Source: Patescibacteria group bacterium (GTDB lineage Bacteria > Patescibacteriota > Patescibacteriia > CAIXNZ01). From it: DNA of 64,000 bases. The translations under genes were made by a program, and so were the position numbers. Positions within the stretch are counted from its first letter, which is position 1. The number at the start of each line of letters is the position of its first letter. Shown in pieces: positions 25,765 to 61,140 of this stretch. A model generated the notes under the pieces. The model did not search any database and was not told the DNA's origin. It worked only from the letters and a program-made list of their open reading frames with translations. Where the stretch lies: assembly GCA_028714455.1 (NCBI GenBank), contig JAQTMG010000001.1, positions 568-64,567 of the forward strand. The letters are read 5' to 3'.

Positions 25765-25987
25765 AAGCGTAGAAACAGTACGGCGACTCGTGCCCATCTA
25801 AACACGAGGAAAGGGTTCGACTCCCTTTGACTGGCTTTACAAGGAGCTTTTATCTGCCGAGAATAGTTGGGAGGCAATGAATCCCGGTTTTCGGACTGGG
25901 TGGAGCCGAATCTGGAATACCAACCGGATAAAAGACCTTGGCAAGTTCTGCGCTAGGGGGAGAGTGCCACAACCTCTCCCTTTTTTC
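25765..25987 (+). ncRNA. candidate ~220-nt structured ncRNA (identity unresolved; short RNase P / tmRNA-like motifs)
   Basis: 630-bp gap without ORFs; promoter upstream; strong terminator GGGGAGAG-N9-CTCTCCC plus T6 at 25957-25987; hairpin GTTTCTA...TAGAAAC; motifs CGAGGAAAGGGTTCGACTCCC (cf. RNase P CR-I GAGGAAAG; tRNA-like T-arm) and GAATCCCGGTTTTCGG (cf. RNase P P4 3' strand GAACCCGGCTTATCGG). Confidence 0.4.
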
Positions 25988-27101: not shown

Positions 27102-27149
27102 TACAATCTATCACATAATACAGACCGTACCCTGGGGTGCGGTTTTTTA

Positions 27150-27191
27150 AAAAAGAAAAACCCCTCACCTTTTCTTTGAAAAGGTGAGGGG
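27150..27191 (-). terminator. terminator of the short RFLAIRK paralog (minus strand)
   Basis: cccctcacctttt-N5-aaaaggtgagggg followed by T-run on minus strand. Confidence 0.55.
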
Positions 27192-27207
27192 TAAGTGTTC
27201 AAATACC

Positions 27208-27456
27208 TTACTTGCGAATGGCCAGGAACCGCCAACTGCCAAGCCACTTACTGTCAACATTGTTCCAGTAGAGGTTGAGCTTGCGCTTGCCATCATTGAA
27301 GACCAGGCACGGACAGTTACGATTGCCGTTGTCATTGACCCAGACCGAGCCGAGATTATACAGAATACCGCCAAAGCCACTGCCCATTGAGTACTCTCTG
27401 GACTGTATTTTATGCGGGAGCATCCTCCCTTGATATTCTGTACCAAGTATTTTCAT
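27208..27456 (-). CDS. short paralog (83 aa; possible pseudogene/remnant) of the C-terminal Cys/Trp-rich domain, ...WRFLAIRK
   Basis: GSVWVNDNGNRNCPCLVFNDGKRKLNLYWNNVDSKWLGSWRFLAIRK aligns with C-terminus of 27682..28296; GC-rich; own extended -10 promoter and ~150-nt leader. Confidence 0.45.
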   Translation of the reverse strand: MKILGTEYQGRMLPHKIQSREYSMGSGFGGILYNLGSVWVNDNGNRNCPCLVFNDGKRKLNLYWNNVDSKWLGSWRFLAIRK

Positions 27457-27581
27457 TTTTAGAAATACCAAATGTATGCTAAGCCAAGACGTGTCCTGAC
27501 CTATTCTAACGAATTTAGTATTCTAGATTTCAACCGCCCAAAGCCGTGACCGTGGGCTGATTCGTTTACTATCCATAAAAA

Positions 27582-27626
27582 ATTATAGCACAAAAAAAAC
27601 ACCGCGCAGATATTATCCACGCGGTG
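27582..27626 (-). promoter_or_regulatory. terminator of upstream paralog (caccgcg-N13-cgcggtg + T8) overlapping extended -10 TGcTATAAT
   Basis: Seen on minus strand between the two paralogs. Confidence 0.45.
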
Positions 27627-27681
27627 ATATGATTTGCAAGTGTCCAAGTGCCAAGAGCTCAAGGTTCCAAGAATCCAAGAA

Positions 27682-28296
27682 CTACTTGCGGACGGCCAAG
27701 AAACGGCAACAGGCACCCCAATGACCGTCACCACCGAACCAATAGAGGAAGAGCTTGCGCTCGCCATCAGTGAAGTTCAGGTACGGACAGCTACGATTGC
27801 CGAAGGCATCGACCCAGACCGAGCCGAGAGCGACGATCGGAAACTCCCGTTGAACATCCGGGTTGGCCGCTCCAAAGGCGAGCAGGTGTTCAATGCTAGC
27901 CGGCTTAAGACCCAGACCGTCAAGATGCGCCAGCGCTTCTTTGGTCGTAGCGTCTTTGTTGAGATGAACCAGAACCAATTCGGCTTCTTGCTGACCGACG
28001 CCCTGGACAGGAAAGTGCTTGTCGCTGATGTCGTCATTGACCCAGGCATATTTGCCGAGCTTGATCATCTCGGTGAGCGTCTTGCCGTAGTCCACGACCA
28101 CTCTGTAGGTGTCGCTGGCTTTTTGCCGGCCGAACATGATCAGTTCGGCAACCTGCTTGACCAACTTGCTGTCAGTGAGCAGGCGGTGCAGATCGTCGTC
28201 GCCGCCGCCCAATTCCAGGACGGCATTTGTGATCGCTTGCATTATGGACCACATTTTGCCGGCGGCCTTCAAAAACTCGCTTTTCTTTCTTGCCAT
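27682..28296 (-). CDS. hypothetical protein (204 aa) with C-terminal Cys/Trp-rich domain ...HWGACCRFLAVRK, GC-rich
   Basis: Strong SD aaaggaggatttgacaATG; the mirror-image plus-strand ORF 27634..28323 lacks ATG/SD and is rejected. Confidence 0.6.
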   Translation of the reverse strand: MARKKSEFLKAAGKMWSIMQAITNAVLELGGGDDDLHRLLTDSKLVKQVAELIMFGRQKASDTYRVVVDYGKTLTEMIKLGKYAWVNDDISDKHFPVQGVGQQEAELVLVHLNKDATTKEALAHLDGLGLKPASIEHLLAFGAANPDVQREFPIVALGSVWVDAFGNRSCPYLNFTDGERKLFLYWFGGDGHWGACCRFLAVRK

Positions 28297-28532
28297 TGTC
28301 AAATCCTCCTTTGTCGCGCTTAGCGACTCCAGTGGCTTGCCCCTTGCTTTGACTTTCAAGGCCTAAGGCTTGCCAAGTATGCTTTCATACTATCATACTT
28401 TTATAATTTTGTCAATGATAACGATTCAAAAATTAGCTAATATTAAATAAATAAATTTTTTAGCTATCTTTAGACAATAAATCCAGGCAAAGTTGACTAA
28501 GACCAAAATTTTTGCTAAACTATATTATAATA

Positions 28533-28567
28533 TAGCTCTGGGCTCGGAGCTTTGAGCTTAGAGCTTT
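28533..28567. repeat. tandem heptamer array (TAGCTCT GGGCTCG GAGCTTT GAGCTTA GAGCTTT)
   Basis: 7-nt period. Confidence 0.6.
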
Positions 28568-28650
28568 TTAAATAAAACATTCTAAAATTGTTCCGAAGGG
28601 ATGCCTTTGGCATAAATTGTAAATTGAGAATTGTAAATTGTTTCAGACTC

Positions 28651-28729
28651 CGTAGTTTCCGCCAGAGGCGGACCACGAATCGAGCTTTGCTCTGGTTCGT
28701 GGCAATGGATATCAAAAAATTAACACCTG
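28651..28729 (+). repeat. tRNA-Arg-associated leader element, copy A (identical to copy B at 60670-60752)
   Basis: CCGTAGTT + TCCGCCAGAGGCGGA hairpin + CCACGAA-N16-TTCGTGG hairpin + CAATGGATA (tRNA D-loop sequence) + TCAAAAAATTAACACCT, directly abutting tRNA-Arg 5' end. Confidence 0.7.
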
Positions 28730-28801
28730 TCCTCGTAGTTCAATGGATAGAACAAGAGCCTTCTAAGCTCTGGATTGGGGTTCGATTCCTCACGGGGACA
28801 T
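28730..28801 (+). tRNA. tRNA-Arg (anticodon UCU), no encoded CCA
   Basis: Acceptor GTCCTCG/CGGGGAC, D-arm GTTC-AATGGATA-GAAC, anticodon arm AGAGC-CTTCTAA-GCTCT, T-arm TGGGG-TTCGATT-CCTCA. Confidence 0.85.
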
Positions 28802-28906
28802 CAGTGGTTCTCGGCCAAAGGCTGATCCGCCTCTGGCGGAGATTCCTGGCGGGGTCATAAGGAGATTCGAGTTTCGTGCAAGAGCAAGAGAAATAAAAAT
28901 AAAAAT

Positions 28907-29251
28907 ATGTTTGATTTTGAAAAACTTGAAGTTTATAAAAAAGCCAAAAATATAAATGTTGAAATTTCGGAATTTTTAAAATCTGCAAATGTAGATATTT
29001 TCCTGAATAATCAGTTGAAAAGAGCTTCGTTAAGCATATTATTGAATATTGCGGAAGGTAGCGGTAGATCAACAAAAAGAGATAAAAGAAATTTTTTTGT
29101 CATTGCTCGCGGTTCGGTCTTTGAGTGCACTTCAATTTTTGATCTATTATTCACAGAGAAAGAAATTGAAATTGAAAAATATAATTATTTTTACAATCAG
29201 CTTGAAGAGATTTCAAAAATGCTATACGGTCTAATCAAAACTCATGAATAA
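28907..29251 (+). CDS. four-helix-bundle protein (23S rRNA intervening-sequence / Avd-like family)
   Basis: 114 aa; KLEVYKKA...LKRASLSILLNIAEGSGRSTKRDKRNFFVIARGSVFECTSIFDLL pattern of TIGR02436-type proteins; flanked by inverted GCAAGAG-rich repeats (28883-28895 / 29256-29280). Confidence 0.75.
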   Translation: MFDFEKLEVYKKAKNINVEISEFLKSANVDIFLNNQLKRASLSILLNIAEGSGRSTKRDKRNFFVIARGSVFECTSIFDLLFTEKEIEIEKYNYFYNQLEEISKMLYGLIKTHE

Positions 29252-29288
29252 ACTCTTGCTCGTATCTCTCGTCTCTTGCTGATATCAT

Positions 29289-43628: not shown

Positions 43629-43995
43629 GAAAAGTCCTCCTTTACTTTGTTGATGTTAATATATTGAAATTAATTCGATAAGTCAAGCTTGACTTTTGTT
43701 ATATTTTAGCTTATTATAATAGTAATCCCGAAAGGGATTTTGTTTTTTGAGAATAGGTATTAGGTAATAGTTATTAGGAAATGGAATAAATTTCTTATCG
43801 CCAATACCTATTGCCAAATACCCAATATCCAGCACACCGCCTTCGTCCCGAACTATATCTCGCTTTGCTCAATAAGTTCGGGATAAATCTAATGGTTAGC
43901 CATAGTCCGCCGAAGCACGAAGTGCGAAGGCGGAGACACCGCGCTTTTCCGCCAGAGGCGGACCCGCCTACGGCGGGCAATGCGGTTAAATAAAT

Positions 43996-44250
43996 ATGTA
44001 TTATTTATATATTTTAAAAAGTTTAAAAGACGAAGGATATTATATTGGAATTACAGATAGCACCCTAGATCGACTCAAGGAACATAATCAGGGCAAGGTA
44101 AGATCGACAAAAAGTCGCAGACCATTTATCCTAAAATATTCTGAAAATTATAATACAAAAACTGAAGCAAGAGAAAGAGAGATTCAGCTGAAAAGAAACT
44201 GCAAAATCCGCAAAGAACTTTTACTAAAACTGAAATTTAGTGTTAAATAA
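43996..44250 (+). CDS. GIY-YIG nuclease family protein (84 aa)
   Basis: MYYLYILKSLKDEGYYIGITDSTLDRLKEHNQG — GIY-YIG motif. Confidence 0.8.
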   Translation: MYYLYILKSLKDEGYYIGITDSTLDRLKEHNQGKVRSTKSRRPFILKYSENYNTKTEAREREIQLKRNCKIRKELLLKLKFSVK

Positions 44251-44257
44251 ATATCAC

Positions 44258-44329
44258 GCCGCCATCGTCTAATGGTTAGGACACCGCGCTTTCAATGCGG
44301 TAATCGGGGTTCGATTCCCCGTGGCGGTA
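44258..44329 (+). tRNA. tRNA-Glu (anticodon UUC), no CCA
   Basis: Acceptor GCCGCCA/TGGCGGT (G1.U72), D-arm GTCT-AATGGTTA-GGAC, anticodon arm CCGCG-CTTTCAA-TGCGG, T-arm CGGGG-TTCGATT-CCCCG. Confidence 0.8.
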
Positions 44330-44578
44330 CTTGTCCACAGTTGTCATTCTTTCAGTTGAATTTTTCCCCCGAAAAATTCTAACATCATTTGCCAGGCAGT
44401 ACTATTAAAAACCCCGCGACTATCTCGCGGGTTTTTTATTCTTGACAAAATTAAAAAATTTTGTTAAAATAATCTATCGTTCATTGATAAAAAAGACTGT
44501 TTAAACAGTTTTAATAAATATAAATAAAAGATTTTGTGATGGGTGCCAAAACGCATTCCTAGCCATAAGGAGGAACTG

Positions 44579-48925: not shown

Positions 48926-49100
48926 CTTGAATTTTTAAAAAAATTAAGCTAAAATAAAGAAAACTTACCATTGGTAAGTTTTTCTATTGCAACATTGGGT
49001 TCGGCTTGAAAGCCCAGCCTAAGTAAGCATCGCACTGATCGTATTTTTAGCATAATCTAATTTTCACGAAATGAAGCATGAATACATAAACTTGCAACTG

Positions 49101-49133
49101 GGCCACTTAGCCAAGCAGTAAGGCAAGGATCTG
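49101..49133 (+). pseudogene. degenerate 5'-half copy of tRNA-Cys
   Basis: GGCCACTTAGCCAAGCAGTAAGGCAAGGATCTG vs genuine GGCCTGATAGCCAAGTGGTAAGGCGAGGGTCTG 20 nt downstream. Confidence 0.5.
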
Positions 49134-49153
49134 TCTGCCTACGCAATTTCTGC

Positions 49154-49225
49154 GGCCTGATAGCCAAGTGGTAAGGCGAGGGTCTGCAAAACCCTTATTC
49201 GTGGGTTCGATTCCCACTCAGGCCT
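49154..49225 (+). tRNA. tRNA-Cys (anticodon GCA), no CCA
   Basis: Acceptor GGCCTGA/TCAGGCC, anticodon arm AGGGT-CTGCAAA-ACCCT, T-arm GTGGG-TTCGATT-CCCAC. Confidence 0.85.
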
Positions 49226-49344
49226 AATTCAATTCCTTGCCCAGCACCTCTTTGGTGCTAGGCCATAGTGGCCTCAAGAAAGCCCCGCGGTGCGGGGTTT
49301 TTTGATGGTAAATTAACCAAAAAAGTGATAAAATTAAGAAAAAC

Positions 49345-60464: not shown

Positions 60465-60488
60465 AAATTGTTTCACGTGAAACAATTT
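60465..60488. promoter_or_regulatory. 24-bp perfect palindrome AAATTGTTTCACGTGAAACAATTT
   Basis: Seen directly; candidate operator upstream of tRNA cluster. Confidence 0.35.
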
Positions 60489-60548
60489 TCATGTTTTTGA
60501 AAACAATATATATAAATTTCCCGACTGGATTTGAACAATATCAAATTC

Positions 60549-60600
60549 GAGGGCCAAGAAATATATAGCCCTCGGGCAGATACAAGTTTATGTATAATTA
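60549..60600. repeat. ~50-bp repeat unit (GGCCAAGA...GGGCAGATACAAGTTTATGTATAATT), copy 1
   Basis: Paralogous to 60852-60890 and 60897-60935; inverted copies at 60655-60676 and 60990-61008. Confidence 0.6.
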
Positions 60601-60669
60601 GCAATAATCGTATTTAACGTTAAATCGATAAGTGCGATTATAATTCAGGCCTTACGCAGACTTGTATCT

Positions 60670-60752
60670 GCCCTCGTAGTTTCCGCCAGAGGCGGACCAC
60701 GAATCGAGCTTTGCTCTGGTTCGTGGCAATGGATATCAAAAAATTAACACCT
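60670..60752 (+). repeat. tRNA-Arg-associated leader element, copy B (100% identical to copy A core)
   Basis: GCCCTCGTAGTT (tRNA nt 1-12) + 45-nt double hairpin + CAATGGATA (D-loop) + TCAAAAAATTAACACCT, then the complete tRNA. Confidence 0.7.
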
Positions 60753-60824
60753 GCCCTCGTAGTTCAATGGATAGAACAAGGGACTCCTAAGCCTTAGATG
60801 GTGGTTCGATTCCTCCCGAGGGCA
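60753..60824 (+). tRNA. tRNA-Arg (anticodon CCU), no CCA; two stem mismatches
   Basis: Acceptor GCCCTCG/CGAGGGC perfect; D-arm identical to tRNA-Arg(UCU); anticodon loop CTCCTAA; A31.G39 and T51.T63 mismatches. Confidence 0.6.
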
Positions 60825-60851
60825 TTAAATTGTGTATAATTGGCCAAGATA

Positions 60852-60935
60852 AAAAAGGGGCCAGCCCAGATACAAGTTTGTGTGTAGGCCTAAGAAAATG
60901 GGCCTGCCCCGATAAAAGTTTATGTGAAAAATAGT
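60852..60935. repeat. repeat units 2 and 3 (..CCCAGATACAAGTTTGTGTGTAGG.. / ..CCCCGATAAAAGTTTATGTG..)
   Basis: Direct repeats after tRNA-Arg; unit 3 is inverted partner of the sequence abutting tRNA-Ala. Confidence 0.55.
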
Positions 60936-61002
60936 TTTATGCATTGTTTGTATTGCGTACGAAAAAATACGCTTCAAACATTGAGCACACAGACTTTTAT
61001 CG

Positions 61003-61075
61003 GGGCCGCTAGCTCAGCTGGTAGAGCGCTTCCATGGCATGGAAGAGGCCAGGGGTTCAAGTCCCCTGCGGTCCA
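61003..61075 (+). tRNA. tRNA-Ala (anticodon GGC), no CCA
   Basis: G3.U70 identity pair; D-arm GCTC-AGCTGGTA-GAGC; anticodon arm CTTCC-ATGGCAT-GGAAG; T-arm AGGGG-TTCAAGT-CCCCT. Confidence 0.8.
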
Positions 61076-61140
61076 AAGCGAAATTAACATAAAATTGCTC
61101 AAAGTATAAACGGGCCTGCCCGCCAAAGCTTTGCGAAGGC

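What the first reader, a model, noticed from the sequence alone, without database searches (positions are those of the whole stretch)
28651..28801. Identical ~80-nt structured element fused to the 5' end of two different tRNA-Arg genes
The 79-83 nt immediately upstream of tRNA-Arg(UCU) (28651-28729) and tRNA-Arg(CCU) (60670-60752) are 100% identical, although the two tRNAs differ and lie 32 kb apart in an AT-rich genome. The element begins with the first 12 nt of the tRNA (GCCCTCGTAGTT; only CCGTAGTT in copy A). It then contains two GC-rich hairpins (CCGCCAGAGGCGG; CCACGAA-N16-TTCGTGG), then CAATGGATA (the tRNA D-loop sequence), then TCAAAAAATTAACACCT, and only then the intact tRNA. This reads like the 5' 21 nt of the tRNA with a 45-nt insert in the D-loop, left as a partial duplicate. 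It is the footprint expected of a small site-specific mobile element (or integrative-element att remnant) targeting the shared D-arm of tRNA-Arg genes, or of a conserved processed 5' leader RNA.
Basis: seen in the sequence. Interest (0 to 1): 0.75.

Follow-up and report, generated by a model that had tools for sequence, protein, structure and literature searches.

The report
Ghost tRNA pieces split by hairpin inserts
The repeated 80-base element is the leftover front end of an older tRNA-Arg gene, split by a small GC-rich double-hairpin insert and sitting in the leader of the working tRNA; it is one case of a widespread, apparently undescribed habit of CPR bacteria of breaking tRNA genes with hairpin inserts while a working copy persists beside or inside the broken one.

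Summary
28651-28756 equals 60675-60780 (106 nt, one mismatch), covering 78 nt upstream plus the first 28 nt of each tRNA-Arg. The element is a "ghost": tRNA-Arg positions 1-12, a 45-nt hairpin insert at 12/13, positions 13-21, then a 17-nt spacer and the intact tRNA.

It is neither Arg-specific nor unique. Ghosts also flank tRNA-Glu (with a GIY-YIG nuclease gene), tRNA-Cys and the 3' side of tRNA-Arg(UCU) in this window.

A pattern scan of species genomes found 27 loci, about 20 labelled CPR. Many show an intact tRNA-Arg nested inside a complete but interrupted outer tRNA-Arg, up to three deep, bracketed by complementary arms (CCTGCCCGCC...GGCGGGCAGG).

The 30-nt double hairpin (TCCGCC-NNN-GGCGGA, twice) lay in tRNA or ghost-tRNA sequence in at least 21 of 22 cases found in 324 kb, always with one polarity.

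Close relatives show empty, partly deleted and decayed sites, so the element is dispensable.

Best reading: fossils of tRNA-gene disruption by a mobile palindromic module, with the gene kept intact by duplication or replacement, and recent ectopic copying between the two Arg loci. The mobilising enzyme is unknown. I found no published description.

The parts
28493..28521 (+). Conserved sigma-70-like promoter of the tRNA-Arg(UCU)-His unit (TTGACT-17-TAAACT). Everything from here to 28728 is therefore leader.
   Evidence: Promoter scan. The same promoter lies directly upstream of tRNA-Arg(UCU) in L073, L075 and L027.
28646..28657 (+). Locus A, 5' ghost exon 1: GACTCCGTAGTT, positions 1-12 of the ancestral tRNA-Arg(UCU).
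   Evidence: Identical to the 5' end of the real tRNA in L027 and L075. Pairs 7/7 with 28850-28856.
28658..28702 (+). Locus A, 45-nt insert at tRNA position 12/13: hairpin 1 TCCGCCAGAGGCGGA plus an enlarged hairpin 2 CCACGAA-N16-TTCGTGG.
   Evidence: Member of the double-hairpin family.
28703..28728 (+). Locus A, ghost exon 2 (CAATGGATA, positions 13-21) plus a 17-nt AT-rich spacer. The spacer has the length and position of the left arm in nested loci, so it is inferred to be a decayed arm.
   Evidence: Homologous remnant in L075 and L027. In nested loci the spacer is the arm CCYGCCCGCC....
28729..28800 (+). Intact tRNA-Arg(UCU). Its first 28 nt belong to the block shared with locus B.
28802..28857 (+). 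Locus A, 3' ghost: CAGTGGTTC, then the insert TCGGCCAAAGGCTGA TCCGCCTCTGGCGGA at T-loop position 56/57, then GATTCCTGGCGGGGTCA (ancestral T-arm and acceptor 3' strand).
   Evidence: The same ghost is present in L075. 28826-28840 is the exact complement of 28658-28672.
60670..60681 (+). Locus B, 5' ghost exon 1: GCCCTCGTAGTT (tRNA-Arg positions 1-12).
   Evidence: Orthologous ghost in L001 and a decayed one in L002.
60682..60726 (+). Locus B, 45-nt insert identical to 28658-28702.
60727..60752 (+). Locus B, ghost exon 2 (CAATGGATA) plus the 17-nt spacer.
60753..60824 (+). Intact tRNA-Arg(CCU).
60566..60673 (+). Locus B, an older layer. A second-order ghost GCCCTC is followed by a stem GGGCAGATACAAGT (60574-60587) / ACTTGTATCTGCCC (60660-60673). 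The 3' arm of this stem runs into the ghost.
   Evidence: Read directly. This segment is absent from the orthologous L001 locus.
43836..43986 (+). Ghost of tRNA-Glu positions 1-43 in four exon pieces (43836-47, 43888-99, 43935-47, 43978-86). Three hairpin inserts separate them, including a canonical double hairpin at anticodon-loop position 35/36 (43948-43977).
43996..44250 (+). 84-aa GIY-YIG nuclease gene between the tRNA-Glu ghost and the intact tRNA-Glu (44258-44330).
   Evidence: Pfam PF01541, E=5.8e-14. The same ghost-hairpin / GIY-YIG / tRNA-Glu order is seen wherever homologue loci were inspected.
49100..49153 (+). Ghost of tRNA-Cys positions 1-34 (diverged from the real gene) plus the spacer TCTGCCTACGCAATTTCTGC, directly upstream of tRNA-Cys (49154-49225).
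   Evidence: read directly.
61112..61140 (+). tRNA-Val leader: GGGC followed by CTGCCCGCCAAAGCTTTGCGAAGGC. This is the CCTGCCCGCC...GGCGGG hairpin, and its 3' arm overlaps tRNA-Val positions 1-4.

Best explanation
The ~80-nt element is a dead fragment ('ghost') of an earlier tRNA-Arg gene. It consists of positions 1-12, a GC-rich palindromic double-hairpin module inserted at 12/13, positions 13-21, and a short decayed spacer. The working tRNA follows immediately.

It belongs to a CPR-wide family of events. Oriented palindromic modules sit at fixed positions of tRNA genes: 12/13, 21/22, the anticodon loop and 55-57. Two forms occur: the 30-nt double hairpin TCCGCC-NNN-GGCGGA x2, and longer cassettes bounded by CCTGCCCGCC...GGCGGGCAGG. 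A disrupted gene is seen only where an intact copy of the same tRNA survives next to it or inside it. That intact copy is a local partial tandem duplicate, a complete replacement tRNA nested between complementary arms, or, for tRNA-Glu, a GIY-YIG nuclease gene plus tRNA.

Inferred steps, not shown:
- Recombination between the direct repeats trims nested forms to one-sided ghosts such as those in this window.
- The ghosts decay, or collect further hairpin modules.
- Because the ghost lies between the promoter and the tRNA, it is transcribed as a 5' leader and removed by RNase P. At locus A the 5' and 3' ghosts can form a 27-bp helix around the tRNA.
- The ghost has no required function.
- The 100% identity of the two copies comes from a recent ectopic copying event, either gene conversion or re-homing of the module, most likely from the Arg(CCU) locus into the Arg(UCU) locus. 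It covered the module, the spacer and the first ~28 nt of the tRNA.

The enzyme that moves the modules is not identified.
For: Anatomy and identity:
-.

Other ghosts in this window:
- A 3' ghost lies downstream of tRNA-Arg(UCU). Its acceptor strand co-varies with the 5' ghost (GACTCCG/CGGGGTC, against the inner tRNA's GTCCTCG/CGGGGAC).
- More ghosts flank tRNA-Glu and tRNA-Cys, and tRNA-Val has a leader hairpin.
- (T/C)CCGCC-NNN-GGCGG(A/G) hairpins occur in the window only inside ghosts. All other GC hairpins look like terminators.

Breadth:
- The architecture scan of 185,579 species genomes gave 27 loci, about 20 labelled as CPR lineages and the rest mostly unclassified or doubtfully binned MAGs.
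- In many of these loci the intact tRNA-Arg is nested in an outer tRNA-Arg.
- After removal of the insert, ARAGORN calls the rejoined outer pieces as tRNA, with the same anticodon as the inner gene, in L008, L031, L029, L013, L022 (outermost layer) and L004-Ala.
- In L008 the outer and inner genes differ by compensatory pairs in three stems. They therefore diverged while both were functional, which points to a foreign replacement.
- Left and right arms are complementary: at most 1 of 200 shuffles did as well in 9 of 11 cases.

The double-hairpin module:
- 12 modules aligned: 100% of 144 cells paired, 8 of 12 pairs with compensatory changes, 0 of 500 shuffles as good.
- At least 21 of 22 modules found in 324 kb lie in tRNA or ghost contexts, all with one polarity.
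- The same 30-nt module sits at 12/13 of Gly, Ile and Arg ghosts in unrelated metagenomes. In some of these the duplication includes 10 to more than 54 nt of upstream flank.

Frequency:
- 42 of 70 tRNAs in the fetched loci carry a copy of 10 nt or more of themselves within 250 nt, against 1 of 70 for shifted flanks. The sample is biased towards Arg and includes matches to neighbouring paralogous tRNAs. About 10 independent non-Arg cases were seen.

GIY-YIG link:
- In every GIY-YIG homologue locus where both flanks could be read (L059, L060, L063, L064, L066, L067) the order is ghost Glu, GIY-YIG, tRNA-Glu. Five of these six show the double hairpin at 35/36; in L067 the ghost runs into the annotated ORF.

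Gain and loss at the orthologous sites:
- Locus B: present with a different hairpin 2 in L001, decayed in L002, absent in L004.
- Locus A: empty in L073, 5' ghost only in L027, 5' remnant plus 3' ghost in L075, both in the window.

Direction B to A:
- L002's hairpin 2 (CCACTTCATGG) resembles the window's.
- The inner 5' strand at locus A (GTCCTCG) resembles B's (GCCCTCG), not the ancestral A strand GACTCCG.
Against: - No transposase or other mobilising enzyme was identified, and no clear fixed-length target-site duplication was seen.
- The perfect palindromy, the covariation and the fixed polarity relative to tRNA sense would also fit an RNA-level function, for example protection of the leader or a processing signal.
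- The ghost exons are identical between the window and L001 (YchF 85% identical) although the spacers diverged. This needs gene conversion, re-insertion or selection to explain it.
- In GIY-YIG loci the ghost is 100% identical to the resident tRNA-Glu in three different genomes. This fits local duplication or homing co-conversion better than a foreign replacement, so more than one mechanism may be at work.
- The order of events (duplication first or hairpin first) is not resolved.
- There are no expression data.
- Many of the sequences used for the covariation count were chosen by eye as canonical modules.
Confidence: 0.62

Rival explanations
1. A functional, selected 5' leader. The ghost and hairpins would form a cis-acting RNA structure that guides pre-tRNA processing (an RNase III stalk as in rRNA operons, or RNase P presentation), or that stabilises or regulates the precursor.
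For: - The ghost lies between a conserved promoter and the tRNA, so it should be transcribed.
- Locus A folds into a 27-bp outer helix around the tRNA: MFE -104 kcal/mol, z = -7.2.
- The hairpin stems covary perfectly and have a fixed polarity relative to tRNA sense.
- The arms of nested cassettes abut the inner tRNA like a processing stalk.
Against: - Close relatives lack the element (L073, L004), have deleted half of it (L075) or let it decay (L002).
- The long helix at locus A needs the 3' ghost, which is absent in L027 and at locus B.
- Locus B folds only into two local hairpins, z = -2.9.
- Apart from palindromy, the sequences are not conserved: hairpin 2 differs completely between the window and L001.
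- The same modules sit inside truncated tRNA pieces at three different loop positions.
Confidence: 0.13
2. Attachment-site scars of integrative elements. A phage or island would have integrated into the tRNA gene through a tyrosine recombinase and later been lost, leaving partial tRNA repeats.
For: - Partial tRNA duplications are the classic footprint of tRNA-targeting integrases (general knowledge; Williams 2002).
- A tyrosine recombinase gene lies 1.6 kb upstream of locus A.
- The insertion points, in the anticodon loop and T-loop, are the sublocations such integrases prefer.
Against: - The recombinase is XerC/D-like. Its 91-92% identical orthologues sit in the same S15-Xer-tRNA-Arg-His-Csp context in relatives that have no ghost.
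- The duplicated part is the 5' end, 17 nt from the intact gene.
- Complete tRNAs are nested inside tRNAs, which reciprocal site-specific recombination does not produce.
- The hairpin module lies inside the ghost, not between the repeats.
- No viral contig carries the architecture, and the 26 viral hits to the junction motif are chance matches in coding DNA.
Confidence: 0.08
3. The hairpin inserts are a new kind of small bacterial tRNA intron, and the interrupted 'outer' genes are functional after excision and ligation, as with multi-intron and split tRNAs of archaea.
For: - Rejoined outer pieces fold as good cloverleaves with the right anticodon.
- The inserts sit at loop positions also used by non-canonical archaeal introns (general knowledge).
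- An RNA-ligase-like gene (PF09511) lies near one nested locus, L004.
Against: - In this window every outer gene is truncated. Locus B has only positions 1-21, locus A lacks 22-48, and Glu lacks the 3' third.
- The stems abut the junctions with no bulge-helix-bulge.
- There is always an intact copy of the same isoacceptor.
- Several outers carry four or more inserts plus deletions (L009).
- No splicing endonuclease is known in bacteria.
Confidence: 0.03
4. An artefact of metagenome assembly or binning, with chimeric joins of strain variants creating false partial repeats.
For: The window comes from a metagenome-assembled genome. Repeats near tRNAs are places where assemblies break.
Against: - The same architecture appears in dozens of independent assemblies, including a closed chromosome (CP181398.1) and single-cell genomes.
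- The junctions are precise and lie at fixed tRNA positions.
- Orthologous loci show graded states.
Confidence: 0.01

Closest known systems
Mitochondrial hairpin elements: double-hairpin elements of Allomyces (Paquin, Laforest and Lang 2000), yeast mitochondrial GC clusters, the GC-rich palindromes flanking tRNA genes in Neurospora mitochondria (Yin et al. 1981), and sponge repetitive hairpin elements. Known to me from the text and reference list of PMC2800124.
   Same: - Short GC-rich palindromic units in an AT-rich compact genome, often as two adjacent hairpins.
- No coding capacity.
- Presence/absence differences between close relatives.
- Association with tRNA genes and other structured-RNA genes.
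- No clear target-site duplication. For Allomyces an RNA intermediate was proposed for that reason.
   Different: - Those elements lie between genes or in variable rRNA regions. Here the modules sit at fixed positions inside tRNA-coding sequence.
- Here they are tied to partial or nested duplication of the tRNA.
- The hosts are free-living or episymbiotic bacteria, not organelles.
- Sequence homology was not tested and is not expected.
tRNA-targeting integrative elements (phages, islands) that rebuild the tRNA from a copy carried in attP.
   Same: - Insertion into a tRNA gene at loop positions.
- Function is restored by element-borne tRNA sequence.
- The displaced part remains as a pseudo-fragment.
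   Different: - Those elements are kilobases long, encode an integrase and duplicate the 3' part.
- Here the inserts are 30-120 nt and encode nothing, apart from the GIY-YIG case.
- Here the 5' part, the 3' part or the whole tRNA is duplicated, and tRNAs end up nested.
Disrupted tRNA genes of archaea and red algae: multiple non-canonical introns, split and permuted tRNAs (reviews PMC4033280 and PMC4390854, seen and not read in full).
   Same: - tRNA coding sequence is interrupted at D-arm, anticodon-loop and T-loop positions by short structured inserts that look related to one another.
- GC-rich complementary sequences lie next to tRNA halves.
   Different: - Those genes are functional and are processed at bulge-helix-bulge motifs by a splicing endonuclease and a ligase.
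- Here there is no such motif, the interrupted copy is redundant and usually truncated, and the organisms are bacteria.
Free-standing homing-endonuclease genes that insert into a host gene and bring a replacement for the displaced part. Examples are fungal mitochondrial GIY-YIG/LAGLIDADG ORFs with duplicated gene ends (Allomyces atp6, Paquin et al. 1994) and phage T4 SegB in the tRNA cluster. This rests on my own knowledge and on titles.
   Same: - The tRNA-Glu locus has the order [displaced gene part][GIY-YIG ORF][intact gene].
- That order is conserved across homologues and is tandemly iterated in L064.
   Different: - The target is a tRNA gene.
- The protein is only an 84-aa catalytic domain with no recognisable DNA-binding domain.
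- The displaced part carries a double hairpin in five of the six loci examined; in the sixth (L067) the ghost runs into the annotated ORF.
- Cleavage specificity is unknown.
Bacterial palindromic repeats: REP/BIME with RAYT transposases, and Rickettsia palindromic elements that insert into genes including RNA genes (my own knowledge).
   Same: Short hairpin-forming repeats, orientation-specific and multi-copy. They are presumably recognised as folded single strands.
   Different: - REPs are extragenic and associated with a RAYT gene. No such gene was seen here, although it was not searched for genome-wide.
- The specificity for tRNA positions and the coupled duplication are not features of REP or RPE.
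rRNA intervening sequences removed by RNase III, some carrying a PF05635 '23S rRNA IVS protein' ORF (my own knowledge of the family name and history).
   Same: - Extended helices are inserted at loop tips of a structured-RNA gene.
- A PF05635 ORF bracketed by an imperfect inverted repeat lies right next to locus A.
- The 27-bp helix at locus A would be an RNase III substrate.
   Different: IVS-containing rRNA still works in pieces. A tRNA cut in its D-loop, anticodon loop or T-loop would not, and here a separate intact tRNA does the work.

Membership tests
tRNA (Rfam RF00005) | Complete cloverleaf scoring above the gathering threshold | tested here: not met
   Only the downstream genes score (64.7 and 62.1 bits). 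The ghost regions give no tRNA hit even at E<=10. They are fragments (positions 1-21) split by an insert.
Integrative-element att scar (tyrosine recombinase, tRNA target) | Direct repeat of the tRNA 3' part at the far end of an island that carries its own integrase | tested here: not met
   The repeat is the 5' part, 17 nt from the gene. The only recombinase is an XerC/D-like orthologue in conserved synteny. There are no viral matches.
Group I intron in a Patescibacteria tRNA | Ribozyme core of about 200 nt or more (Rfam Intron_gpI), inserted in the anticodon loop of an otherwise single functional gene | tested here: not met
   The inserts are 30-45 nt. Rfam gives no hit at gathering threshold or at E<=10. 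The position here is 12/13 in the D-arm. The published survey (PMC13011429) reports no such elements.
Archaeal-type BHB intron / split tRNA | Bulge-helix-bulge at the exon-intron junctions, and an interrupted gene that is the only functional copy | tested here: not met
   The stems start directly at the junctions with no 3-nt bulges (read). An intact copy of the same isoacceptor is always present. The outers in this window are truncated.
Archaeal-type BHB intron / split tRNA | Splicing endonuclease and ligase present and acting on the transcript | not testable with these tools
   This needs whole-genome gene content and RNA data.
Hairpin repeat elements (mitochondrial double-hairpin elements, GC clusters, REP-like) | Short GC-rich unit folding into one or two perfect hairpins, recurring in many copies | tested here: met
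   There are 5 copies in the 64-kb window and 22 double modules in 324 kb of related loci. Pairing is 100% with compensatory changes.
Hairpin repeat elements (mitochondrial double-hairpin elements, GC clusters, REP-like) | Insertion polymorphism between close relatives (evidence of mobility) | tested here: met
   Locus A is empty in L073, has a module in L027, and has different sets in L075 and the window. Locus B differs across L001, L002 and L004. The same 30-mer occurs in ghosts of different tRNAs.
Hairpin repeat elements (mitochondrial double-hairpin elements, GC clusters, REP-like) | Cognate mobilising enzyme (for example a RAYT/Y1 transposase), or a defined target-site duplication | tested here: inconclusive
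   None of the roughly 15 window ORFs scanned encodes such an enzyme, and the whole genome was not available. The flanking direct repeats vary from 4 to more than 60 nt, so there is no fixed duplication.
RNase III processing stalk / rRNA-type intervening sequence | Long leader-trailer helix (about 20 bp or more) enclosing the mature RNA, conserved among relatives | tested here: inconclusive
   The helix is present at locus A (27 bp) and around nested tRNAs. It is absent at locus B and in L027 and L073. Cleavage cannot be tested.
Free-standing GIY-YIG homing endonuclease (tRNA-Glu locus) | GIY-YIG catalytic domain encoded next to, or within, the gene it targets | tested here: met
   PF01541, E=5.8e-14. 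An intact tRNA-Glu follows the ORF in 8 of 9 homologue loci (L065 ends at the ORF), 4-7 nt downstream in all but one (L062, ~20 nt); the six loci with readable upstream flank also show a tRNA-Glu ghost before the ORF.
Free-standing GIY-YIG homing endonuclease (tRNA-Glu locus) | Site-specific cleavage of the element-free allele, with immunity of the element-bearing allele | not testable with these tools
   This needs biochemistry. The intact inner tRNA keeps the full target sequence, so how immunity would work is unexplained.

The most novel reading that the evidence does not exclude
CPR bacteria harbour a previously undescribed class of tRNA-gene-specific insertion elements. These are oriented 30-nt double-hairpin modules and arm-bounded cassettes that carry a complete replacement tRNA or, for tRNA-Glu, a GIY-YIG nuclease gene. 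They would spread by breaking the resident tRNA gene and making their own copy indispensable, which is a gene-replacement drive acting on tRNA genes. The result is tRNA-in-tRNA nesting up to three deep and a fossil record of ghosts. The element in this window is one such fossil, recently re-copied between two tRNA-Arg loci.
Probability: 0.4. Interest if true: 0.85.

Novelty: new variant of a known kind. Interest (0 to 1): 0.72.

Why it matters
- tRNA genes are among the most conserved and essential genes, and CPR genomes usually hold one copy of each. A process that repeatedly breaks them, with a working copy always surviving beside or inside the broken gene, would be a new mode of selfish-element persistence in minimal genomes.
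- If the nested inner genes are foreign replacements, as the L008 stem differences suggest, this would be a route for horizontal replacement of tRNA genes.
- It has practical consequences. Ghosts and nested genes confuse tRNA annotation and completeness estimates for CPR genomes.
- The fixed insertion points and the strict polarity of a 30-nt module imply an enzyme or RNA-level mechanism that reads tRNA shape. Finding it would be of interest for nucleic-acid targeting.
- The parallel with mitochondrial double-hairpin elements suggests convergent colonisation of AT-rich reduced genomes by GC-rich hairpins.

Tried and rejected
- **Rfam.** At gathering threshold on the whole window, and at E<=10 on 28500-28920, only the tRNAs themselves match.
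- **Viral contigs.** The full architecture pattern gave 0 hits. The junction motif CAAYGGATACCYGCCYG gave 26 hits, all chance matches inside GC-rich phage coding DNA with no tRNA 5' part.
- **Metagenomes.** The exact 30-nt hairpin 2 gave 0 hits, so no near-identical strain was available for population comparison.
- **Island integrase.** Rejected, because the gene is a Xer orthologue in conserved synteny.
- **One long 15-bp hairpin instead of two hairpins.** Only 80.6% of cells pair, against 100% for two hairpins.
- **Promoter between ghost and tRNA.** None is possible in 17 nt. The promoter scan finds the conserved promoter upstream of the ghost at locus A but nothing convincing at locus B.
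- **GTAG before the hairpin as a REP/RAYT-type signal.** Dropped, because the Glu and T-loop sites lack it.
- **P-nucleotide-like palindromes made from flanking sequence.** Rejected, because the palindromes are unrelated to their flanks.
- **Literature.** Searches found no description of hairpin-split ghost tRNAs or nested tRNA genes in bacteria. Subscription journals are not covered by the library.
- **Chimeric 'outer' for locus A.** The version I rebuilt borrowed the inner gene's middle, so it is not evidence.
Full report
**Check of the observation**

The window holds nine tRNA genes, including tRNA-Arg(UCU) at 28729-28800 and tRNA-Arg(CCU) at 60753-60824. A base-by-base extension shows that 28651-28756 equals 60675-60780, which is 106 nt with one mismatch at tRNA position 2. 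The shared block is therefore 78 nt of upstream sequence plus the first 28 nt of both tRNAs.

The stated anatomy is right: positions 1-12, two hairpins, CAATGGATA, a 17-nt spacer, then the tRNA. One detail needs correcting. Copy A does not start with a truncated tRNA end. It starts with a different acceptor strand, GACTCCG.

**The thing is bigger than the finding**

- Just downstream of tRNA-Arg(UCU) lies a second fragment, at 28802-28857. It is a T-arm and acceptor 3' strand (…GGTTC | GATTCCTGGCGGGGTCA) split in the T-loop by two more hairpins. One of these is the exact complement of the upstream hairpin 1.
- GACTCCG upstream and CGGGGTC downstream pair 7/7, whereas the working tRNA between them uses GTCCTCG/CGGGGAC. 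The working gene thus sits between the two ends of an older tRNA-Arg. Folding 28640-28870 gives a 27-bp outer helix around a normal cloverleaf (-104 kcal/mol, z = -7.2).
- tRNA-Glu (44258) is preceded by a copy of its own positions 1-43 broken by three hairpin inserts. One insert contains the same TTTCCGCCAGAGGCGGACC 19-mer. An 84-aa GIY-YIG nuclease gene follows the ghost.
- tRNA-Cys (49154) is preceded by a diverged copy of its positions 1-34 plus a spacer beginning TCTGCC.
- tRNA-Val has a CCTGCCCGCC…GGCGGG hairpin running into its first four bases.
- A census of perfect GC-rich hairpins shows that the (T/C)CCGCC-NNN-GGCGG(A/G) type occurs only inside these tRNA fragments. The other hairpins are ordinary A…T-flanked, terminator-like ones.

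**Source and relatives**

YchF and Xer proteins identify a Patescibacteria (CPR) genome related to Falkowbacteria and Parcubacteria.

At the orthologous tRNA-Arg(CCU)-Ala-Val-YchF locus:
- L001 (YchF 85% identical) has the same architecture, with a slightly different hairpin 1, a completely different hairpin 2 and a diverged spacer.
- L002 (82%) has a decayed version (ATCCTCGCAGTT, weakened hairpins, CAACGGATA).
- L004 (74%) has nothing upstream of tRNA-Arg.

At the orthologous S15-Xer-tRNA-Arg(UCU)-His-Csp locus, a conserved promoter (window 28493-28521) is followed as below:
- L073 (Xer 92%): the tRNA directly, with no ghost.
- L027: a 5' ghost with a canonical double hairpin.
- L075 (Xer 91%): only the 13-21 remnant and spacer, plus the same 3' ghost as the window.
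- The window: both ghosts.

The element is therefore gained, lost and eroded among close relatives. It lies in the transcribed leader, because 17 nt leave no room for a promoter between it and the tRNA.

**A CPR-wide pattern**

I scanned one genome per species (185,579 species) for AGTT-N22-52-CAAYGGAT-N10-40-GTAGTTCAAYGGATAGAAC. This gave 27 loci. About 20 are labelled CPR, from many classes: Magasanik-, Kerfeld-, Peri-, Kaiser-, Doudna-, Falkow- and Saccharibacteria, and Paceibacterota. The rest are mostly unclassified or doubtfully binned MAGs. The set includes a closed chromosome and single-cell genomes.

Two forms recur:
- Ghost 1-12, then a double hairpin, then 13-21, then a spacer, then the tRNA.
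- Uninterrupted ghost 1-21, then a spacer beginning CCYGCCCGCC, then the tRNA.

Looking downstream shows that in many loci the intact tRNA is followed by a sequence complementary to the spacer, and then by the rest of the outer tRNA. The arrangement is outer 1-21 | left arm | intact tRNA | right arm | outer 22-76.

- After removal of the insert, ARAGORN calls the rejoined outer pieces as tRNA with the same anticodon as the inner gene. This holds for L008, L031, L029, L013, L022 (outermost layer) and the tRNA-Ala of L004.
- L022, a Saccharibacteria genome, is nested three deep.
- Left and right arms are complementary well beyond shuffled controls in 9 of 11 cases.
- In L008 the outer and inner genes differ in all three long stems by compensatory pairs. 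They therefore diverged while both were working genes, which means one of them is foreign.

**The hairpin module**

Twelve canonical modules from D-arm, anticodon-loop and T-loop sites align without gaps as two 6-bp stems with 3-nt loops. All 144 cells pair, 8 of 12 pairs show compensatory changes, and none of 500 shuffles reaches this. A single long hairpin fits worse. The sequences were picked by eye, which inflates the pairing percentage but not the diversity of stems.

An unbiased scan of all fetched loci (324 kb) found 22 adjacent double hairpins. At least 21 have tRNA sequence on both sides, at 12/13, 35/36 or 55-57. All have the same polarity relative to tRNA sense, with the purine-rich loop first and the pyrimidine-rich loop second.

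A metagenome search for GTAGTT plus hairpin 1 plus CCA found the same 30-mer at 12/13 in ghosts of tRNA-Gly(CCC), tRNA-Ile(GAU) and a tRNA-Arg whose working copy is clearly a different gene. In two of these cases the direct repeat extends 10 to more than 54 nt upstream of tRNA position 1, so some ghosts arise by local tandem duplication of DNA.

Overall, 42 of 70 tRNAs in the fetched loci carry a copy of 10 nt or more of themselves within 250 nt, against 1 of 70 when the flanks are shifted by 1.5 kb. The Arg loci were selected for this property and some hits are neighbouring paralogues. About ten independent non-Arg cases remain: Ala, Val, Ser, His, Pro, Gly and Phe.

**The GIY-YIG link**

Homologues of the window's 84-aa GIY-YIG protein (61-86% identical, all CPR) were traced to their contigs.

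- In all but one of the nine fetched loci an intact tRNA-Glu(UUC) follows the ORF; L065 ends at the ORF. It lies 4-7 nt downstream in every locus except L062 (about 20 nt).
- In all six loci whose upstream flank could be read, a tRNA-Glu ghost precedes the ORF. Five of them carry a canonical double hairpin at 35/36.
- One locus has two such units in tandem, and another also keeps a 3' ghost.
- In three genomes the ghost exons are identical to the resident tRNA-Glu, although tRNA-Glu differs between these genomes.

This is the arrangement expected of a nuclease gene that entered the tRNA gene and kept it working by duplication. It resembles homing-endonuclease ORFs in fungal mitochondria, which duplicate the displaced end of their host gene (my own knowledge). 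The Arg element looks like an ORF-less counterpart.

**How the identity of the two copies arose**

Both Arg loci already had ghosts before the window's lineage split from L027/L075 (locus A) and L001/L002 (locus B). Those ghosts have different hairpins and spacers. In the window, the segment from ghost position 6 to position 28 of the working tRNA is the same at both loci, while the ancestral acceptor GACTCCG survives just to the left at locus A.

L002's short hairpin 2 (CCACTTCATGG) resembles the window's hairpin 2. The working tRNA-Arg(UCU) now starts GTCCTCG, like locus B's GCCCTCG, instead of GACTCCG, with A71 restoring the 2:71 pair. This points to a recent ectopic copy from B to A. I cannot separate ordinary gene conversion from re-insertion of the same 83-nt unit, and both give the same product.

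**Mechanism, shown and inferred**

Shown:
- Ghosts are tRNA fragments.
- The modules are palindromic, position-specific, polar and restricted to tRNA or ghost sequence.
- Nested tRNAs exist and have complementary arms.
- Sites are polymorphic among relatives.
- The GIY-YIG gene is tied to tRNA-Glu ghosts.

Inferred:
- The modules are mobile.
- Insertion is tolerated only where a spare copy exists or arrives with the insert.
- One-sided ghosts derive from nested or tandem forms by recombination between the direct repeats.
- The ghost is transcribed and discarded.

Unknown:
- The enzyme.
- Whether insertion acts on folded single-stranded DNA or through RNA. The loop positions and the strict polarity fit either.
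- How the element-bearing allele would escape a nuclease.

**Comparison with known systems**

The closest structural analogues are the mitochondrial hairpin elements: Allomyces double-hairpin elements, yeast GC clusters and the Neurospora palindromes next to tRNA genes. The closest analogues in logic are tRNA-targeting integrative elements and homing-endonuclease ORFs that carry a replacement for what they displace. The closest analogues in appearance are archaeal multi-intron and split tRNAs.

The element fails the defining tests for a group I intron, a BHB intron and an att scar (see the membership table). A recent survey of tRNA introns in Patescibacteria does not mention it, and seven full-text searches found no description. 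I rate it a new variant of known kinds (hairpin repeats, and insertion with target restoration) rather than a new category. Bacterial tRNA-in-tRNA nesting appears to be new.

**Verdict**

The finding is real. It is correctly read as a split partial tRNA copy, but it is neither Arg-specific nor a functional leader. It opens onto a broad and little-known feature of CPR genomes. Interest 0.72.

Noticed in passing
window 43836-44330: tRNA-Glu ghost (positions 1-43, three hairpin inserts), then an 84-aa GIY-YIG gene flanked by the direct repeat GTTAAATAAATAT, then the intact tRNA-Glu. The same order is conserved in homologue loci from other CPR genomes, and in tandem in L064.
   Followed up: yes
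window 49100-49275: tRNA-Cys is preceded by a diverged copy of its own positions 1-34 plus a TCTGCC... spacer. It is followed by a degenerate T-loop/acceptor-like remnant (…TTCAATTCC…GTGGCCT).
   Followed up: partly
window 60906-61006 and 61112-61140: Leader stems run into the 5' ends of tRNA-Ala and tRNA-Val. For tRNA-Ala it is a 21-bp stem, GCCCCGATAAAAGTTTATGTG / CACACAGACTTTTATCGGGGC. For tRNA-Val it is a CCTGCCCGCC…GGCGGG hairpin. Both are preceded by a 4-5-nt copy of the tRNA start.
   Followed up: partly
window 60495-60669 and 60826-61002: About 175 nt on each side of the Arg(CCU) unit is absent from the orthologous L001 locus. This sequence contains three copies of a GGCC…CAGATACAAGTTTRTGT unit and a degenerate tRNA-Arg 3' end (…TTCGAGGGCCA at about 60546-60556).
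   Followed up: partly
window 28855-29282: A 114-aa PF05635 '23S rRNA intervening-sequence protein' (four-helix bundle) ORF at 28907-29251 is bracketed by an imperfect 30-nt inverted repeat. It is absent between tRNA-Arg and tRNA-His in L027, L073 and L075, so it looks like a separate small insertion.
   Followed up: partly
window 25813-25934: An intergenic fragment matches bacterial 23S rRNA positions 2127-2214 (the L1-stalk region) at 49.7 bits, E=5e-14, just under the Rfam gathering score. A tRNA T-arm-like GGGTTCGACTCCC lies next to it. The S15-Xer spacer of relative L073 is about 370 nt shorter, and no such fragment was noticed in it on inspection. This may be a ghost of an rRNA gene.
   Followed up: partly
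window 27102-28490: About 1.4 kb lies between the Xer stop codon and the tRNA promoter, where L073 and L075 have about 10 nt. It holds a 225-aa ORF on the minus strand with no Pfam or NCBIfam match, and a 147-nt direct repeat (27209-27355 and 27683-27829, 80% identical).
   Followed up: no
window 60468-60487; also L001, L002, L004: A perfect palindrome, TTGTTTCACGTGAAACAA, lies upstream of the tRNA-Arg(CCU) cluster and is conserved in all four genomes. It looks like an operator or a bidirectional terminator between rmuC and the tRNA cluster.
   Followed up: no
L022 (Saccharibacteria, minus strand, about 280-640), L008, L009, L031, L004 5277-5480: Complete tRNA genes are nested inside interrupted tRNA genes of the same anticodon, three deep in L022. 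The outer gene of L009 carries at least five separate inserts.
   Followed up: yes
L006 1-184, L028 about 860-1090, L025, L004 5540-5876: Ghost units occur as tandem arrays of 2-3 copies, each unit being a spacer plus a partial tRNA with a hairpin insert. This suggests repeated events or unequal crossing-over.
   Followed up: partly
L029 (Saccharibacteria), downstream of tRNA-Gly and tRNA-Phe: A different, longer insert family (~110 nt, ending CCTGGCTAYGTARTAGCC) precedes 3' ghosts starting at T-loop position 57 of two different tRNAs in one genome.
   Followed up: no
L002 1073-3165; L004 11441-12610: A TnpB/Cas12f-like gene with an adjacent Cas1 gene lies near the tRNA cluster in L002. A T4-type RNA ligase gene (PF09511) lies near the nested tRNAs in L004. 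No link to the ghosts was established.
   Followed up: no
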